This document shows positions 3,341 to 8,000 of a stretch of 64,000 nt of DNA, in pieces. Origin of the DNA: a virus; the IMG/VR virus record IMGVR_UViG_3300030497_000008, positions 32,001-96,000 of that record. One strand, written 5' to 3'. A program made the translations under genes and the position numbers. Each line of letters begins with the position of its first letter. Position 1 is the stretch's first letter. The notes beneath the pieces are model-generated. The model saw only the letters and a list, made by a program, of their open reading frames with translations, made no database searches and was not told the DNA's origin.

Positions 3341-3559
3341 TTATTTATCCTCCTTGTGTGCTCTAAAGTGTACGATTTCATCATAACGTATATACTCATC
3401 GTCGATTACTACATAGTCTCCGATTGGCTCAATATCCTTGTAATTTGTAAATCCTTTGATTTGAGAACATGCCAAGTGCTCTGCAAATGAATCCATTGAC
3501 GCGTGACGAGTATTAACTACCACACAAGAATTATTCTTTAAGTATAAATCAATCTTCAT
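3341..3559 (-). CDS. hypothetical protein
   Basis: 72 aa ORF in operon packing. Confidence 0.65.
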   Translation of the reverse strand: MKIDLYLKNNSCVVVNTRHASMDSFAEHLACSQIKGFTNYKDIEPIGDYVVIDDEYIRYDEIVHFRAHKEDK

Positions 3560-4151
3560 TACTTTTCAACTCTCTTTCGATAATTTCTAAAACAATATTA
3601 TCGATTTGTCGGTATAAAGTCGGAAGTGCTCCGTTATTGTATACATCGAAATCTACCTCAGCTTTATCCACGCACTGCTCTGTCTCATCTGTGAAATCAT
3701 CCATGTCGCAGATATCACCAGCATCTTTAATTCGTTGTAATCGTACCTTGTCATCAGCATTTATACGAATAATAGTATATCCTTCTTCACGAAGCTTACG
3801 GAATTCATTTTCCTGACGAACACCTGTAACTACGACTTTGAAGTGAGGTAAATTACGGAAGAACTCACGAGACGTAAAAGGCGTGCTTTCGTATTTCTCT
3901 ACATCATCTTCGATTCTATTGAGTGTTCGTCTAACCCAATAATCTTCACCGAACGCGAATTTCTGTAATTCCGCATACAACTTGTACCCTTTTCGTGGCT
4001 TCTCACCTCTATTATAGGGGTACTTTTTAGCGAAGTCATCTTTTACACCGTCAGACAAGTCATAAATATAGAATCCGTATTTAATAGACAGATACCTTTC
4101 AACAATAGACTTACCAGCTCGCATCTTCCCTGCAATTGCAATTTTAATCAT
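3549..4151 (-). CDS. deoxynucleoside monophosphate kinase (P-loop)
   Basis: N-terminal Walker A GKMRAGKS; VVVTGVRQENE motif; sits between DHFR and ThyA. Confidence 0.85.
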   Translation of the reverse strand: MIKIAIAGKMRAGKSIVERYLSIKYGFYIYDLSDGVKDDFAKKYPYNRGEKPRKGYKLYAELQKFAFGEDYWVRRTLNRIEDDVEKYESTPFTSREFFRNLPHFKVVVTGVRQENEFRKLREEGYTIIRINADDKVRLQRIKDAGDICDMDDFTDETEQCVDKAEVDFDVYNNGALPTLYRQIDNIVLEIIERELKSNED

Positions 4152-4312
4152 TTCACTAACTCCTTTTCATATTTTTCTACTGTTTTATGGAAGTCTCTTA
4201 AAAACTCTTTCACATGAGTAGGGTTTGTTCGTTTCGTCCCATCTTCACGAATTTCCGTTCTACGCATCAACCATGCATGCATACTTAGAATCTCTCTTTC
4301 GAAATCCGTCAC
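4148..4312 (-). CDS. hypothetical 54 aa protein (not in ORF track)
   Basis: GTG start overlaps the thyA stop (GTGA); stop overlaps the kinase ATG; SD GGAGG. Confidence 0.65.
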   Translation of the reverse strand: MTDFEREILSMHAWLMRRTEIREDGTKRTNPTHVKEFLRDFHKTVEKYEKELVK

Positions 4313-5976
4313 TTAGCTTCCTCCTTTAAACCAACTGACACAGGCGCTTTAATAGCTTTGTGCGGGTTATAATCTACAATCTCAAAGTCTTCAATCTCAT
4401 AATCTTCTAAATTGTCTTTCTTGTTCTTAATGACTAGTTTAGGCAGCTTTCGTGGTTCGTTTAATAACTGCTCTTTAGCTTGCTCGATGTGGTTAAGATA
4501 TAGATGTATATCCCCACCATTGTAAATGAGAGAACCTACTTCTAATCCGCACTCTAGTGCGATTAAATGCAGCAACAACCCGTAACTAGCAATATTGAAC
4601 GGAAGACCAAGGAATGAATCATTCGAACGCATGAAGAATTTTAAATCTAACTTACCGTTATTATGAACGTATAACTGAAATGCATTGTGACAACAAGGCA
4701 ATGACGCATCGTACTGTTCTGTAGGACTCCAAGCATCTACATACAACCTTCTCGATGTAGGGTTACTTTTTATATCCTCTATAACCTTATGTATCTGATT
4801 TAATGGTAATTTATATCTGTATAACTCACCATCTGGTAAATATTCAAAAGTAAAACCTTTGTGATGCTTCCTCTTTCCAGATAGCACCATGCTTATTTTC
4901 GAATCTAATAATCCTAAATCATTAGCGCACTTAGTTATAGATATATACTTATACTCACATCCTTCTGGTGTCGTTACTTTAAATAACCTACTATTCCTAT
5001 ACAACATGTTGTCCGATTTACTAATCCATACGCATGTATCTGGTGAATAACAATTGGACGAGTAATAATCTTTATCTAACTGGTACTTATTGGGTTCTCT
5101 TTCTTTTCTTTTCCAGTTAACAAGCCTCTTAACATCTTTTACAAAATTTGAAAAGTTATGCCAAGAATCTTCCACAAATACTCCCTTACCACCGTAGTAT
5201 TTGTACTCTTTACACTTTTGGTTATAACATCTATCTATCATGTGATTCCATACTTTTTTAAGATGCTTGTCCATTTTCGTCTTAACTTCATACTCACCGC
5301 TGTAACCGATACCTGCCACAGTTTTTTTGTATACATCTCTAACTCTACCTTCTTTAGCAGCGTCGATTCTAACGTTCTTTTGAATGAATCCTGTATCTAA
5401 AAACTGAATATTAACTGTTTTTCTTTCTCTACCTTTGTATTTATAACTTTCCCCATCTCCTATAATTATGTAATCACCAAATTTTTCACTGGTGTATATG
5501 GTCTTTCCTGTTATGTTTACTTTTACATTATTTTCACGATTAAGGGTTTGTTCTTTTATTATCGGATTTACTTTTTCTATAACTCTATCTGGGTAGGGTA
5601 AGTCCGTCCAGATTCCTCCATAAATTCTACCTAAATCGAATCCATTCTCTTTCACAAACTCAATAAATTCTTCCTTAGACAACGTACCGCCTAGTTCCTT
5701 ATACCAACGATATCCATCTGGAGTCCAGATATTTACATTCTTGTCTATAAGTGTTTTAAGGTTCGTATCTCCTTTTAAGAACCACAGCAGCTCTTCTGCT
5801 ACAAGTCTAAAGGCTACGTGCTTCGTTGTAAGTAATGGGAATCCTTCTGACATATCGAATCGCATGGTATAATCGAAGATACTCAATGTACCTGTACCCG
5901 TTCTATCACTTCTAACTTCCCCGTGTTTAAGTATGTAATCATATAAATCTAAAACTTGTTTATCTACGTTATTCAT
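4309..5976 (-). CDS. thyA: thymidylate synthase with in-frame homing-endonuclease insertion
   Basis: DRTGTGT, FPLLTTK, ELLWFLKG, DLGRIYG, NPTSRR, LPCCH, MRSNDSFLGLPFNIASY, GDIHLYLNH motifs; start at ATG 5976 (SD AAGGAG). Confidence 0.95.
   Translation of the reverse strand: MNNVDKQVLDLYDYILKHGEVRSDRTGTGTLSIFDYTMRFDMSEGFPLLTTKHVAFRLVAEELLWFLKGDTNLKTLIDKNVNIWTPDGYRWYKELGGTLSKEEFIEFVKENGFDLGRIYGGIWTDLPYPDRVIEKVNPIIKEQTLNRENNVKVNITGKTIYTSEKFGDYIIIGDGESYKYKGRERKTVNIQFLDTGFIQKNVRIDAAKEGRVRDVYKKTVAGIGYSGEYEVKTKMDKHLKKVWNHMIDRCYNQKCKEYKYYGGKGVFVEDSWHNFSNFVKDVKRLVNWKRKEREPNKYQLDKDYYSSNCYSPDTCVWISKSDNMLYRNSRLFKVTTPEGCEYKYISITKCANDLGLLDSKISMVLSGKRKHHKGFTFEYLPDGELYRYKLPLNQIHKVIEDIKSNPTSRRLYVDAWSPTEQYDASLPCCHNAFQLYVHNNGKLDLKFFMRSNDSFLGLPFNIASYGLLLHLIALECGLEVGSLIYNGGDIHLYLNHIEQAKEQLLNEPRKLPKLVIKNKKDNLEDYEIEDFEIVDYNPHKAIKAPVSVGLKEEAK
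4804..5595 (-). mobile_element. homing endonuclease (HNH-type nuclease plus NUMOD1/IENR1-like DNA-binding domain) inserted in frame in thyA
   Basis: WNHMIDRCYN..YKYYGGKGVFV..WHNFSNF..LDKD..YSPDTCVWI..N, then YISITKCANDLGL..ISMVLSGKRKHHKGFTFEY; boundaries approximate. Confidence 0.85.
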
Positions 5977-5987
5977 TATGTAACTCC

Positions 5988-6116
5988 TTATTTGTCGTAT
6001 TTCACGCATTTACACGTTCTGCATATGTATCTATCTTTTCTTCCTAGTATGTTTACCTCATACCCATCGTATTCCCATATATGACCTCTTAACATGCATT
6101 TAAATTTAGGTGTCAT
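5988..6116 (-). CDS. small zinc-binding protein (42 aa, DUF1660-like; not in ORF track)
   Basis: MTPKFKCMLRGHIW...ICRTCKCVK: C-x3-GH-x-W...CxxC pattern; SD GGGAG. Confidence 0.65.
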   Translation of the reverse strand: MTPKFKCMLRGHIWEYDGYEVNILGRKDRYICRTCKCVKYDK

Positions 6117-6118
6117 AT

Positions 6119-6310
6119 TTACTTCTCCCACAAGTAATCAATGAACTCGAAGTAGTCTGTTAGCGCGTCTACAGTCATATCTTCTAAAGGAGCACTAGCC
6201 ATACAAAACTCTTCTTCTGATTCACGAATGAACTCTCTGTATGTTTGTGGGTTATCTGCCACTTCTTCTACATCACAAATTCGTTTATCTAACATTTCAT
6301 GTGTAATCAT
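6119..6310 (-). CDS. hypothetical acidic protein
   Basis: 63 aa ORF with ATGA overlap. Confidence 0.7.
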   Translation of the reverse strand: MITHEMLDKRICDVEEVADNPQTYREFIRESEEEFCMASAPLEDMTVDALTDYFEFIDYLWEK

Positions 6311-6546
6311 TGATATCCCCTCTTCTCATATTGTTCGTTTTGCCATTGTTCAATCCAAGATGGTATCTCATCAACACCTTTCAACTCCAAATGTCCTGTC
6401 GTCTCTTTACATTGATGGCAGTACATATGTTTTAAATGCTGCGGCTTCTTTAGGCGACTGCGTTTTCTCCATATTTTCACAACATTTTTACAGACCTCGC
6501 ATTCTAGGCTTGTCTGTTCGTTAATAACTTTTGACTCTGTAGCCAC
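6307..6546 (-). CDS. ribosomal protein L33-like zinc-ribbon protein
   Basis: LECEVC-x21-YCHQCKETTGHLE resembles the L33 pattern CxxC...YCPxCxxHTxHxE; SD GGAGGTG. Confidence 0.7.
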   Translation of the reverse strand: MATESKVINEQTSLECEVCKNVVKIWRKRSRLKKPQHLKHMYCHQCKETTGHLELKGVDEIPSWIEQWQNEQYEKRGYQ

Positions 6547-6569
6547 TGTTACACCTCCCTTCTAGATAC

Positions 6570-6598
6570 ATCTTATACTACTTTTAGTAAAATGTCAA
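6570..6598 (-). promoter_or_regulatory. sigma-A-type promoter with palindromic box in the spacer
   Basis: TTGACA-17-TAAGAT; box at 6577-6591. Confidence 0.75.
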
Positions 6599-6602
6599 TC
6601 TA

Positions 6603-8000
6603 TTATCGGAGTTTTTTAATATTTTTGAACTTTTCGATTGCAGCCATTTCCTCTTCATCTGGGTTTCTATTAGCGAATCCACGAGCTTGTACAACTCTTC
6701 CGTTTTGAATCTCCATTGTAATGAGAGACTTTTCGGGCTTCTTCTTGAGACGCATGAAGATGATATCCGTTGTACCTTCTGCGACTTGGCTTGCATATGA
6801 GGCAACACAATGAGATTGCTCACTACCCTCTGTTGCGATATCTCGCATTGTTTTAGGGGCGATAAAAGAAAAAGCACCAACCTTGCACTCATAGTTCTGC
6901 AACTCAATACGTCGCGCTTCAAACTTCTCAACAAGAACCGTGTCTTCTACTAATTTATAATTTCGAGAAACGATGTCATGATATGTTTTTAAGTATTTCG
7001 GGTATTTATTATATGTATGATTTCCTAACGAGCGATTCATATTAACGTAATCGCGATATGTAGTGATGGCATCTCCAAGCTCCATCCCTTGACTCAATAG
7101 ACATTCGAAAGCCAAGTATTCAATTAAACGTGCTTCATTCGTTATGTAAGGCTTGTCCAATAAAGACCAACCGCTCCAACTCATATAGTGAGCGTACCCG
7201 TTCTTTGTATATTCTCTTAGCTCCGCAAAATCCTTCAAACTCATGTTGTTATCGAACACTTCTAACCTATCGTATACTTGGTACTTATCTTGAAGTTTTT
7301 CTACTAACCCTCTAATATGTCGATAAAAACTAACATCTTTTACTTCTAAGTTTCTTATGTGCGAAATCGCATTTAATGGGAATTTCTCATTGTTAGAAAA
7401 GTCTTTAAATGCTTTGAATTGATTCTTGGTCATTTTCAGTATCTCATGTGCCTTTGTTACATTCTTTTGACCTGCTACAAGAACCCAATGCAGTAAAGCC
7501 TTATCACTATCAAAGCGTTCTAGGTTTACACCAGCTTTGTATAACAGCTCCAACTTATTATAATCATTCATCAACCGTATCAAGGCTCGCGATGTCATGT
7601 CTCGCTTCTCGTTACCGATAGAACCAATTAAGTATAACATCTGATTATACATCCCTTTATTCTCATCTGTCTCCACAAAGTCAACAAACTTATCTATACT
7701 GTCCCTTGTATTGAAGTCCCGCCGTGCTCCCATGATACGTCTAGGAACTATTTCATCTAAATTGTTAACCGTAAACTTAACTTCTTTACCATTTCTTTTT
7801 ATGTAATGTTCTTTGTTCCGTAAGTCGTAGTACATTTCTGCGACAACAACTCTACCAGTCTCAGTTGTGTACTTCGCATAGAAATGGAACATGCTGCTAG
7901 TTTTGTCAATTAAAAAATACTCAACATGCCCAATTGTAGTAGTCTGTTTGAATTCTGTAGATGTCAGTTCGTCTATTAATCTATTTTTATCGTTACTCAT
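6603..8000 (-). CDS. PcfJ-like domain protein
   Basis: C-terminal EGSEQSHCVASY..IIFMR..LITMEI..VVQARGFANR signature. Confidence 0.8.
   Translation of the reverse strand: MSNDKNRLIDELTSTEFKQTTTIGHVEYFLIDKTSSMFHFYAKYTTETGRVVVAEMYYDLRNKEHYIKRNGKEVKFTVNNLDEIVPRRIMGARRDFNTRDSIDKFVDFVETDENKGMYNQMLYLIGSIGNEKRDMTSRALIRLMNDYNKLELLYKAGVNLERFDSDKALLHWVLVAGQKNVTKAHEILKMTKNQFKAFKDFSNNEKFPLNAISHIRNLEVKDVSFYRHIRGLVEKLQDKYQVYDRLEVFDNNMSLKDFAELREYTKNGYAHYMSWSGWSLLDKPYITNEARLIEYLAFECLLSQGMELGDAITTYRDYVNMNRSLGNHTYNKYPKYLKTYHDIVSRNYKLVEDTVLVEKFEARRIELQNYECKVGAFSFIAPKTMRDIATEGSEQSHCVASYASQVAEGTTDIIFMRLKKKPEKSLITMEIQNGRVVQARGFANRNPDEEEMAAIEKFKNIKKLR

What the first reader, a model, noticed from the sequence alone, without database searches (positions are those of the whole stretch)
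4804..5595. Homing endonuclease fused in frame inside thymidylate synthase without intein or intron signatures
Seen: about 260 aa lie between the ThyA YGxxW motif and the (D/N)QI..NP.SRR motif, where only a short loop is expected. The insert has an HNH-type nuclease and a NUMOD1-like domain. The frame is open throughout, with no Cys/Ser start plus HN-C/S/T end and no non-coding RNA core. All catalytic ThyA motifs are retained. Established: thy genes are homing hotspots, normally via group I introns (T4 td, Bacillus phages). Inference: a splicing-independent lifestyle in which the endonuclease is tolerated as a surface domain of a bifunctional enzyme, or an unrecognised processing step.
Basis: partly seen in the sequence, partly recalled or inferred. 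Interest (0 to 1): 0.8.

Follow-up and report, generated by a model that had tools for sequence, protein, structure and literature searches.

The report
Unspliced homing-nuclease module inside phage ThyA
The only thymidylate synthase gene of this Bacillus phage carries, in frame and with nothing to splice it out, a 267-residue homing-endonuclease-like module in a surface loop. A near-identical sister phage has the site empty, so this looks like a selfish gene that survives as an extra domain of a working enzyme.

Summary
ORF 4309..6009 (-) encodes 566 aa: a complete ThyA, with residues 137-403 (nt 4801-5601) replacing a 6-residue loop.

The module has four parts:
- short beta-strand linkers;
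- an SH3/Tudor-like barrel;
- a conserved core that PHROG labels HNH;
- an I-HmuI-type NUMOD helix-turn-helix.

No intron was detected (Rfam), no Hint/intein family matched, and the junctions have no conserved splice-type residues.

The main new result is a sister phage (L012). It is 95-97% identical over 2.9 kb on each side, yet its site is empty. In the window a foreign tract runs from codon 132 through the module to about codon 480, which is a co-conversion signature.

Supporting evidence:
- At least 63 clusters (50% identity) of very different ThyAs carry the module, nearly all with ThyA catalytic residues kept.
- Module and ThyA trees conflict (AU p 2.6e-35).
- Extein dN/dS is about 0.04.
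- This is the phage's only thymidylate synthase.

Caveats:
- The core has no conserved His (Asp-Lys-Asp instead), so nuclease activity is inferred.
- RNA or protein processing was not tested directly.

The closest published case is the ShiLan insertion, where the HNH is out of frame. This scan has already reported the same module family in a jumbo-phage thyA.

The parts
4309..6009 (-). Fused ORF, 566 codons plus stop: ThyA with the in-frame module. Relatives are annotated from the ATG at codon 12 (nt 5976).
   Evidence: TIGR03284 thym_sym 308 bits
5602..6009 (-). ThyA N-terminal part (residues 1-136) with the RTGTGT, EELLWF, IW and YGGIW motifs
   Evidence: codons 12-131 are 95% nt identical to the sister phage L012
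4801..5601 (-). Inserted module, residues 137-403 (801 nt). It replaces the 18-nt loop WNGEGY of empty alleles. GC 0.32 versus 0.37 in the exteins.
   Evidence: phrog_2081 E 2e-59; AF2 model of the module alone pLDDT 92.4
5482..5601 (-). N-terminal linker, residues 137-176, including the strand VIEKVNP. Its family motif is (I/V)(V/I)xVxP(R/K). Free-standing relatives lack it.
   Evidence: strand 144-146 in the model
5338..5511 (-). SH3/Tudor-like beta-barrel, residues about 167-224. Free-standing relatives share it.
4990..5277 (-). Conserved core, residues about 245-340: W..M..RCY...Y.YGGKGV.V...W..F..F..D ... LDKDYY.SNCYS..TC.W.....N. This is the putative nuclease domain.
   Evidence: The profile aligns its W...N helix to I-HmuI W90-N96. 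There is no clear PDB fold match.
5068..5076 (-). Asp312-Lys313-Asp314, present in 85 of 86 representatives. By my hand alignment to I-HmuI (from memory) it sits where the HNH His motif (DHKD) would be.
   Evidence: the equivalence with His75 of I-HmuI is my inference
4843..4977 (-). I-HmuI-type NUMOD-like helix-turn-helix DNA-binding domain, residues 345-389
4801..4842 (-). C-terminal linker, residues 390-403, with the strand LYRYKLPL. Its family motif is (Y/L)R(Y/F)xLP(V/I).
   Evidence: strand 397-399 in the model
4309..4800 (-). ThyA C-terminal part (residues 404-566 plus stop) with NQI, NPTSRR, PCCH, RSND, PFN and GDIHLY
4570..4800 (-). 3' co-conversion tract in the extein. Codons 404-437 are 59% and codons 438-480 are 75% nt identical to L012. 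Codons 481-566 return to 93%.
   Evidence: Empty alleles L012-L015 are 80-88% alike in these segments.
5602..5616 (-). Short 5' diverged tract (codons 132-136, 60% nt identity to L012). YGAQW becomes YGGIW.
6570..6598 (-). Best sigma-70-like promoter match upstream of the small-gene/thyA operon (TTGACA-17-TAAGAT). No promoter-like site lies on this strand inside the module.
   Evidence: consensus match only

Best explanation
A mobile, homing-endonuclease-type protein module entered the thyA gene of this Bequatrovirus-like Bacillus phage by gene conversion. It is neither an intron nor an intein, so nothing removes it. It is translated as part of ThyA.

The module has two short beta-strand linkers, an SH3-like barrel, a conserved nuclease-like core and an I-HmuI-type NUMOD DNA-binding domain. 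The linkers bring its two ends together. It therefore projects from a loop of variable length between the YGxQW and (D/N)Q(I/L) motifs, and the ThyA fold and catalytic residues stay intact.

Inferred mechanism: during mixed infection the fusion protein binds and nicks or cuts thyA alleles whose site is empty. The target codes for two highly conserved ThyA motifs. Recombinational repair then copies the module and flanking exon sequence into the recipient. The filled allele is immune because the module disrupts the target.

Shown here:
- the anatomy;
- the absence of detectable splicing elements;
- recent gain with co-converted flanks;
- family-wide spread among unrelated ThyAs;
- selection for ThyA function.

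Inferred only:
- that the protein is not processed in vivo;
- that the fusion makes dTMP;
- that the module itself is the active nuclease.
For: Anatomy:
- A continuous 566-codon frame holds ThyA in two pieces around the phrog_2081/NUMOD module.
- The full-length AF2 model has pLDDT 88.6 and pTM 0.83. Its ThyA core matches E. coli TS with TM 0.94 normalised to the target.

No splicing element:
- Rfam finds no intron at E<=10.
- No Hint/intein or other family matches in Pfam (21 inserts) or NCBIfam (window protein and its insert).
- Junction columns have no conserved Cys/Ser/Thr or His-Asn.
- Only about 147 nt of the insert lies outside the part shared with free-standing relatives. My judgement is that this is too little for a ribozyme. 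Reference 10.1093/nar/gkaf121 reports 350 +/- 108 non-coding bases in Bastillevirinae introns.

Recent gain:
- L012 is 96.7% and 94.8% nt identical over 2.9 kb on either side but has an empty site.
- Identity to all empty alleles drops to about 60% in codons 132-136 and 404-437, and to 75% in codons 438-480. It then returns to 93%.

Spread:
- The same module sits at the same loop in B. subtilis phage 015DV002 and Klebsiella phage KP13-7; Escherichia jumbo phages give full-length single-piece matches.
- About 20 metagenomic clusters carry it.
- 63 of 86 long representatives carry PF00303, and no other host family appears.
- Module and ThyA trees share 2 of 54 splits, and AU tests reject each other's topology (p 2.6e-35 and 5.6e-5).
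- Pairwise identities of module and host correlate only weakly (r = 0.18).

Host function:
- dN/dS is about 0.04.
- Catalytic residues are kept in 58-64 of 66 module-bearing ThyAs (Arg21: 49).
- This is the only TS gene in a genome rated 100% complete, and there is no ThyX.

Family behaviour:
- phrog_2081 proteins are encoded in group I introns of Bastillevirinae DNA polymerase genes (10.1093/nar/gkaf121).
- Free-standing copies lie two genes from thyA in Chotacabras, LY2 and LBC2.
- A free-standing paralogue with an AP2-like tail lies elsewhere in this genome.
Against: - The core is not a canonical HNH. No His is conserved, and Asp312 sits where the catalytic His is expected by my alignment.
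- Spread could be driven in trans by another nuclease, or by plain recombination.
- There are no RNA or protein data.
- dS against the relative used is saturated, so the dN/dS figure is approximate. It also integrates time before the insertion.
- Whether the module interferes with ThyA dimerisation was not modelled, because two copies exceed the size limit.
Confidence: 0.72

Rival explanations
1. Domesticated or inert passenger. The module has lost nuclease activity (Asp in place of the HNH His) and persists as a DNA- or RNA-binding appendage of ThyA, or as neutral baggage. Its movement between thyA alleles is driven by ordinary recombination or by a nuclease acting in trans, such as the free-standing paralogue.
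For: - There is no conserved His and no Pfam HNH match.
- The core fold is unresolved.
- A free-standing paralogue exists in the same genome.
- Trans-homing of a defunct endonuclease is documented for T4 mobE/I-TevIII (PMC2790892, listed).
Against: - The Asp-Lys-Asp triad and some ten other polar residues are conserved in 85-86 of 86 representatives, including free-standing and multi-module forms. That points to a conserved activity rather than decay.
- The family is the one found in introns and as free-standing genes next to NUMOD or AP2 DNA-binding modules.
- The presence/absence polymorphism and co-conversion tract are what an active element leaves.
Confidence: 0.17
2. Non-canonical protein-level processing. 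The module is removed or cleaved after translation by a mechanism that does not use a Hint domain, or by a phage or host protease. This would release a normal-sized ThyA.
For: - The linker motifs (I/V)(V/I)xVxP(R/K) and (Y/L)R(Y/F)xLP(V/I) are conserved and travel with the module even to a second site (P0019).
- An Asn often precedes Gln405 (20 of 66).
- Absence of processing was not tested.
Against: - No Hint, intein or protease family matches.
- No nucleophile is conserved at either junction. The residue after the module is Asp/Asn-Gln, never Cys/Ser/Thr.
- Linkers of about 40 and 14 residues are too short for a Hint fold.
- In the model the linker strands sit in high-confidence regions.
Confidence: 0.05
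3. RNA-level removal. The insert is an unrecognised self-splicing intron, or is bypassed by the ribosome, and its ORF merely happens to be in frame with both exons.
For: - phrog_2081 proteins are normally intron-encoded in related phages.
- thyA is a classic intron host. LY2 thyA is annotated in two pieces around an ORF named 'intron-associated endonuclease 1'.
Against: - Rfam gives no intron hit at E<=10.
- The frame is continuous through both junctions in 23 aligned sequences and at least 63 representative clusters.
- The linkers are conserved at the amino-acid level.
- Only about 147 nt lies outside the endonuclease-homologous part.
Confidence: 0.02
4. The insertion killed thyA. The gene is a decaying pseudogene and the phage relies on the host's thymidylate synthase.
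For: No enzymatic data exist. Phage thyA can be dispensable in thyA-positive hosts (general knowledge).
Against: - dN/dS is about 0.04.
- All catalytic residues are intact here, and in 58-64 of 66 module-bearing homologues that are only 30-66% identical to each other.
- The ThyA core is modelled with high confidence.
Confidence: 0.04

Closest known systems
ShiLan-domain insertion in mycobacteriophage DNA methylase genes (Arsenault, Gosselin & Gogarten 2025, PMC11855218; earlier PMC9957025)
   Same: An insertion in a phage enzyme gene that reads through in frame. It has no detectable intron or intein features, a sporadic homing-like distribution, and a predicted protrusion from the host protein. 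It is associated with an HNH-type endonuclease.
   Different: In ShiLan the HNH is encoded in another reading frame, and the in-frame product is only a hairpin-like loop. The host methylase is non-essential. Here the whole endonuclease-like protein is in the host frame and must be made as a domain of ThyA. No ORF of 40 aa or more exists in another same-strand frame. The host gene is the phage's only thymidylate synthase, and the core lacks the HNH histidine.
Group-I-intron-encoded and free-standing phrog_2081 'HNH endonucleases' of Bastillevirinae (10.1093/nar/gkaf121, PMC11878797); free-standing copies near thyA in Chotacabras, LY2 and LBC2
   Same: The same protein family (phrog_2081 E 2e-59). 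Free-standing copies are 32-36% identical. The SH3-like barrel, core and NUMOD architecture are shared, and the phage subfamily is the same.
   Different: Those are separate ORFs, inside intron loops or between genes. The window's copy has extra N- and C-terminal linker strands and no start or stop of its own.
I-HmuI (PDB 1U3E), the HNH nicking homing endonuclease of the Bacillus phage SPO1 DNA polymerase intron
   Different: I-HmuI has the canonical His. By my alignment from memory, its DHKD motif corresponds to LDKD here. It has a different N-terminal domain, is intron-encoded, and is made as a separate protein.
Inteins with HNH endonuclease domains, and inteins in phage thymidylate synthase ThyX (10.1101/2025.01.02.630785)
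   Same: An in-frame endonuclease-bearing insertion in a conserved site of a nucleotide-metabolism enzyme, with its N and C termini brought together.
   Different: No Hint splicing domain was detected and there are no junction nucleophiles. The host here is ThyA, not ThyX.
Aeromonas phage Aeh1 nrdA split by the free-standing HNH gene mobE (Friedrich et al. 2007; from my own knowledge, not read here)
   Same: A homing endonuclease gene lodged inside an essential nucleotide-metabolism gene with no splicing, and host function retained.
   Different: There the host gene is cut into two separately translated polypeptides that reassemble. Here a single polypeptide carries the nuclease as an internal domain.

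Membership tests
Thymidylate synthase ThyA (PF00303 / TIGR03284) | HMM score above the curated cut-off | tested here: met
   PF00303 scores 297.9 bits (cut-off 24.3) in two stretches. TIGR03284 scores 308 bits (cut-off 108).
Thymidylate synthase ThyA (PF00303 / TIGR03284) | Catalytic and substrate-binding residues (E. coli R21, E58, Y94, R126/R127, C146, H147, R166, S167, D169, N177, H207, Y209) | tested here: met
   All are present in P0001. The residue numbering equivalence is from my own knowledge of E. coli TS.
Thymidylate synthase ThyA (PF00303 / TIGR03284) | ThyA fold | tested here: met
   The model matches E. coli TS chains with target-normalised TM 0.94, rmsd 3.9 A, E 4e-29.
Thymidylate synthase ThyA (PF00303 / TIGR03284) | dUMP to dTMP activity as a homodimer | not testable with these tools
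   This needs complementation or an enzyme assay. The dimer exceeds the 1000-residue limit of complex prediction.
Intein (Hint superfamily) | Cys/Ser/Thr (or Ala) as first residue, and His-Asn followed by Cys/Ser/Thr at the C-terminal junction | tested here: not met
   Junction columns 135-140 and 400-405 are variable or read (V/I)(D/N)Q. No nucleophile is conserved in 66 ThyA-borne modules.
Intein (Hint superfamily) | Hint fold / splicing blocks A, B, F, G | tested here: inconclusive
   No Hint or intein HMM matches at E<=10 (Pfam, 21 inserts; NCBIfam, the window's own), and none is listed in the fold searches. The regions outside the part shared with free-standing relatives are only about 40 and 14 residues.
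Group I (or II) self-splicing intron | Ribozyme core detectable by covariance model | tested here: not met
   Rfam 15 at E<=10 over 3500-7000, both strands, gives only two unrelated chance hits.
Group I (or II) self-splicing intron | Non-coding sequence that interrupts the host frame | tested here: not met
   The frame is open through both junctions here and in at least 63 representative clusters. The linkers are conserved as protein.
HNH / His-Me finger endonuclease | Catalytic His at the end of strand beta-1 | tested here: not met
   No module column has more than 44% His. By hand alignment the position is Asp312 (85 of 86).
HNH / His-Me finger endonuclease | Metal-binding Asn/His in the helix after strand beta-2 | tested here: met
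   The profile aligns W...N (N334; N in 62 and Q in 22 of 86) to I-HmuI W90...N96.
HNH / His-Me finger endonuclease | Beta-beta-alpha-metal fold | tested here: inconclusive
Homing endonuclease gene (mobile element, functional class) | Presence/absence polymorphism at one site among close relatives | tested here: met
   The site is empty in L012, which is 95-97% identical in its flanks, and in all listed Bequatrovirus thyA genes.
Homing endonuclease gene (mobile element, functional class) | Co-conversion of flanking host sequence | tested here: met
   The foreign tract covers codons 132-136 and 404 to about 480.
Homing endonuclease gene (mobile element, functional class) | Element phylogeny incongruent with host-gene phylogeny | tested here: met
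   Only 2 of 54 splits are shared. AU p is 2.6e-35 and 5.6e-5. Pairwise identities correlate at r = 0.18.
Homing endonuclease gene (mobile element, functional class) | Site-specific cleavage of the empty allele by the encoded protein | not testable with these tools
   This needs an in vitro cleavage assay or a phage cross.
ShiLan-type unspliced insertion | Insertion readable in the host frame with no splicing element | tested here: met
   compared with PMC11855218
ShiLan-type unspliced insertion | Endonuclease encoded in an alternative reading frame of the insertion | tested here: not met
   The endonuclease-like protein is in the host frame. No other same-strand ORF of 40 aa or more lies within 4801-5601.
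I-HmuI_NUMOD-like DNA-binding domain (PF22083) | HMM above cut-off and matching fold | tested here: met

The most novel reading that the evidence does not exclude
Homing endonucleases have a third, splicing-independent way to live inside essential genes. The whole nuclease is built with its own pair of linker strands, so it can sit as an in-frame domain in a surface loop. It is expressed only as part of the host enzyme. Here the fusion would be a truly bifunctional protein that is both a working thymidylate synthase and a working homing nuclease. Because ThyA is an obligate dimer, the scaffold would hold two I-HmuI-like nicking modules together, which could turn a nickase into a double-strand cutter. 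The core, with Asp-Lys-Asp in place of the HNH His, would be a new catalytic variant of the His-Me finger.
Probability: 0.45. Interest if true: 0.85.

Novelty: new variant of a known kind. Interest (0 to 1): 0.72.

Why it matters
Textbook homing endonuclease genes avoid killing their host gene in one of three ways. They hide in a self-splicing intron, hide in an intein, or sit between genes. This case suggests a further solution: become a tolerated extra domain of the enzyme.

The window is a particularly clean example:
- It has an empty-site sister genome, so the event is precisely bounded and the co-conversion tract can be read.
- The target gene is the phage's sole thymidylate synthase.
- The family is large (at least 63 clusters at 50% identity).

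This makes the idea directly testable with RT-PCR, MS, thyA complementation, cleavage assays and phage crosses.

It also bears on several wider points:
- how inteins and intron-borne endonucleases may have arisen;
- genome annotation, since these 520-570 aa 'thymidylate synthases' are labelled without comment;
- protein engineering, as a natural insertion-tolerant loop and a portable linker design;
- a very abundant phage 'HNH' family that lacks the histidine.

Tried and rejected
No transcript data were obtained.
- Intron: Rfam at E<=10 found nothing relevant.
- Intein: no Hint or intein HMMs matched, and no Hint chain appeared in Foldseek or VIA lists. The fold-search absence is recorded here only, not as proof.
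- Hidden out-of-frame ORF, as in ShiLan: none on the coding strand. Two antisense ORFs of 53 and 80 aa (4889..5050, 5158..5400, + strand) look like AT-rich noise and were not pursued.
- Internal expression: there is no promoter-like site on the - strand within the module. There is no in-frame ATG, GTG or TTG where free-standing relatives start (read).
- Cellular genomes: the search for related loci on genome contigs with the module alignment failed for lack of a conserved stretch. Occurrence in bacteria was therefore not checked.
- Dimer modelling: not run, because two copies total 1132 residues, over the 1000-residue limit.
- Donor search: no module more than about 50% identical was found, so the donor remains unknown.
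- Literature: five full-text searches found no description of an in-frame endonuclease module in ThyA.
Full report
WHAT IS THERE

On the minus strand, 4309..6009 is one open frame of 566 codons. Pfam places Thymidylat_synt on it in two stretches (E 7e-89), with an I-HmuI_NUMOD-like domain at residues 345-389. PHROG assigns the ends to thymidylate synthase (phrog_160, E 7.5e-112). It assigns residues 179-411 to phrog_2081, labelled 'HNH endonuclease' (E 2.5e-59).

Alignment with uninterrupted ThyAs of close relatives fixes the boundaries. Empty alleles read ...YGAQWTD-WNGEGY-NQIK.... The window reads ...YGGIWTD-[267 residues]-NQIH.... The module is therefore residues 137-403, nt 4801-5601. It is 801 nt and replaces 18 nt.

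All ThyA catalytic residues are present. The phage genome is 161,391 bp, CheckV rates it 100% complete, and the window is bases 32001-96000 of it. It has no other ThyA and no ThyX.

ANATOMY OF THE MODULE

AlphaFold2 with a 19-sequence alignment gives a confident full-length model (pLDDT 88.6, pTM 0.83). Its ThyA core superposes on E. coli TS (target-normalised TM 0.94). The module folded alone reaches pLDDT 92.4. It has five parts:

- An N-terminal linker of about 40 residues with a short strand (VIEK).
- A core of about 100 residues with the invariant signature W..M..RCY...Y.YGGKGV.V..W..F..F..D ... LDKDYY.SNCYS..TC.W.....N.
- A 14-residue C-terminal linker with the strand LYRY.

Free-standing relatives begin at the barrel and end after the helix-turn-helix (32-36% identity). 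The two linkers are therefore specific to the inserted form. Their family motifs are (I/V)(V/I)xVxP(R/K) and (Y/L)R(Y/F)xLP(V/I). In P0019 the module sits at a different ThyA site, between IWDDW and GDLGPVYG, and still carries both linker motifs. The linkers thus belong to the element, not to the host.

IS IT AN HNH NUCLEASE?

A profile of the module does align its W...N helix to W90...N96 of I-HmuI. Extending that alignment by hand, from my memory of the I-HmuI motif DHKD, puts Leu-Asp312-Lys-Asp where Asp-His-Lys-Asp lies. The Asp-Lys-Asp triad is present in 85 of 86 representatives. I therefore call it a nuclease-like, His-Me-derived core with a variant site. Its activity is inferred.

NOT AN INTRON, NOT AN INTEIN

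- Rfam at E<=10 over 3500-7000 finds no intron.
- The frame is continuous through both junctions in all 23 aligned proteins and in at least 63 representative clusters.
- Only about 147 nt of the insert lies outside the part homologous to free-standing proteins. Bastillevirinae group I introns need 350 +/- 108 non-coding bases (10.1093/nar/gkaf121).
- No Hint or intein HMM matches.
- The junction columns show no conserved Cys/Ser/Thr and no His-Asn. The residue after the module is Asp or Asn, followed by Gln.
- Unlike the ShiLan element, there is no alternative-frame ORF on the coding strand.
- No promoter-like site or in-frame start would let the module be made separately.

EVIDENCE THAT IT MOVES

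The strongest result is a sister genome, L012 (IMGVR_UViG_2706796753_000001, 159.8 kb). It is 96.7% nt identical over 2.9 kb upstream and 94.8% over 2.9 kb downstream, but its thyA site is empty.

Nucleotide identity of the window to L012 along thyA:

| Codons | nt identity to L012 |
|---|---|
| 12-131 | 95% |
| 132-136 | 60% |
| 404-437 | 59% |
| 438-480 | 75% |
| 481-566 | 93% |

In the low-identity segments the window is about equally distant from four empty alleles, which are 80-88% alike there (up to 100% in codons 132-136). The window is therefore the changed lineage. A foreign tract of about 1.05 kb (nt 4570-5616) replaced the resident sequence: the module plus 15 nt on its 5' side and about 230 nt on its 3' side. 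This is the footprint expected from double-strand-break repair with co-conversion of flanking markers.

At family scale:

- The same module occupies the same loop in B. subtilis phage 015DV002 and Klebsiella jumbo phage KP13-7. Escherichia jumbo phages gave full-length single-piece tblastn matches that I did not align.
- About 20 metagenomic clusters carry it.
- A profile search of 1.84 billion representatives found 97,876 hits at E<=1e-3. Of the 86 long proteins among the top 150, 63 carry PF00303 and none carries another host domain.
- Module and ThyA identities correlate only weakly (r = 0.18).
- For 57 full-length proteins, the module and ThyA trees share 2 of 54 splits. Each data set rejects the other's topology (delta lnL about 1090; AU p 2.6e-35 and 5.6e-5). 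One caveat is that each tree was optimised on its own data.

EVIDENCE THAT THYA STILL WORKS

- Extein dN/dS against vB_BcgM is about 0.04. dS is saturated, so the value is approximate.
- Most catalytic residues are kept in 58-64 of 66 module-bearing ThyA homologues (Arg21 in 49). These are only 30-66% identical to one another.
- This implies long persistence of the fused form under selection for enzyme function.
- The host loop differs in length and sequence among the aligned ThyAs.

MOST LIKELY MECHANISM

The gene is transcribed with the early nucleotide-metabolism operon. The best promoter match is at 6570-6598. It is translated into a 65 kDa ThyA-module fusion.

The ThyA part dimerises and makes dTMP. 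The module, held out on its two-strand stalk, recognises the empty thyA site through its NUMOD helix-turn-helix and barrel, and nicks or cuts nearby. Repair from the filled allele copies the module and adjacent exon sequence.

Shown:
- the architecture;
- the lack of detectable splicing elements;
- the gain event with co-conversion;
- horizontal spread;
- constraint on ThyA.

Inferred:
- no processing in vivo;
- TS activity of the fusion;
- nuclease activity of the module;
- the idea that ThyA dimerisation pairs two nicking modules.

RIVALS

- A catalytically dead passenger mobilised in trans or by plain recombination (17%).
- Unknown protein-level processing (5%).
- RNA-level removal (2%).
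- A dead thyA (4%).

COMPARISON WITH WHAT IS KNOWN

The closest published case is the ShiLan insertion in mycobacteriophage methylases (PMC11855218). That insertion is also unspliced and readable in frame. However, its HNH lies in another frame, and the host gene is dispensable.

The protein family itself (phrog_2081) is known as intron-encoded in Bastillevirinae DNA polymerase genes (10.1093/nar/gkaf121). It also occurs free-standing near thyA in related phages. Five literature searches found no report of an endonuclease made as an internal domain of ThyA.

Earlier notes of this scan describe the same module family in a jumbo-phage thyA (e1-5524959) and at the IWDEW/GDLGP site (e1-5524944, e1-5524967). 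My analysis of this window agrees with them. It adds the empty-site sister genome and the co-conversion tract.

VERDICT

I rate it a new variant of a known kind (homing endonuclease elements), with interest 0.72.

Noticed in passing
L011:1489-2238 (G000:C1:140354-141103, outside the window): A free-standing 249-aa paralogue of the module (29% identity over the barrel and core). Its C-terminus reads like an AP2 DNA-binding domain (...GKFIAQVRVNGTKKWLGTFDTPEEASKAY...) instead of NUMOD. The same core is thus combined with different DNA-binding modules within one genome.
   Followed up: partly
P0019 (metagenomic protein): Here the module, without the SH3-like barrel, sits about 15 residues upstream, between IWDDW and GDLGPVYGAQW. 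It keeps both linker motifs, so this is a second insertion site in ThyA for the same element.
   Followed up: partly
L004:974-1696, L005:971-1711, L006:971-1564 (phages Chotacabras, vB_BceH_LY2, vB_BceH_LBC2): Free-standing relatives of the module (32-36% identical) lie two genes upstream of thyA in related Bacillus phages. In LY2, thyA is also annotated in two pieces around an ORF named 'intron-associated endonuclease 1' (L005:2024-4039).
   Followed up: partly
P0013, P0018 and two of 66 representatives in alignment A7: Some module-bearing ThyA homologues lack the RTG motif. Some have Asp at the position of E. coli Asn177 or Ala at His147. These may be dCMP/dUMP-modifying paralogues rather than thymidylate synthases, yet they carry the module at the same loop.
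   Followed up: no
L003:2388-2978 (Bacillus phage vB_BcgM, MG295_00037): The gene downstream of thyA is annotated 'HNH endonuclease'. It is only 18% identical to the module in alignment A4. It begins MIKLALAGGLRVGKS, like the P-loop kinase ORF at window 3549..4151 (MIKIAIAGKMRAGKS). This is probably a mis-annotation.
   Followed up: no
window 5977-6009 (-): The ORF can start 11 codons upstream (MREIRQIRSYI) of the start annotated in relatives (MNNVDK). The extension is also open in the sister phage L012 (MREIRPIRSYI). The true start is undecided, and the model gives these residues pLDDT 40.
   Followed up: no
one search hits P0028, P0037, P0073, P0079, P0097, P0151, P0156: Several proteins of about 370-660 aa match the module profile in 2-6 separate stretches and have no Pfam host domain. 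They may be tandem or multi-module forms of the family.
   Followed up: no
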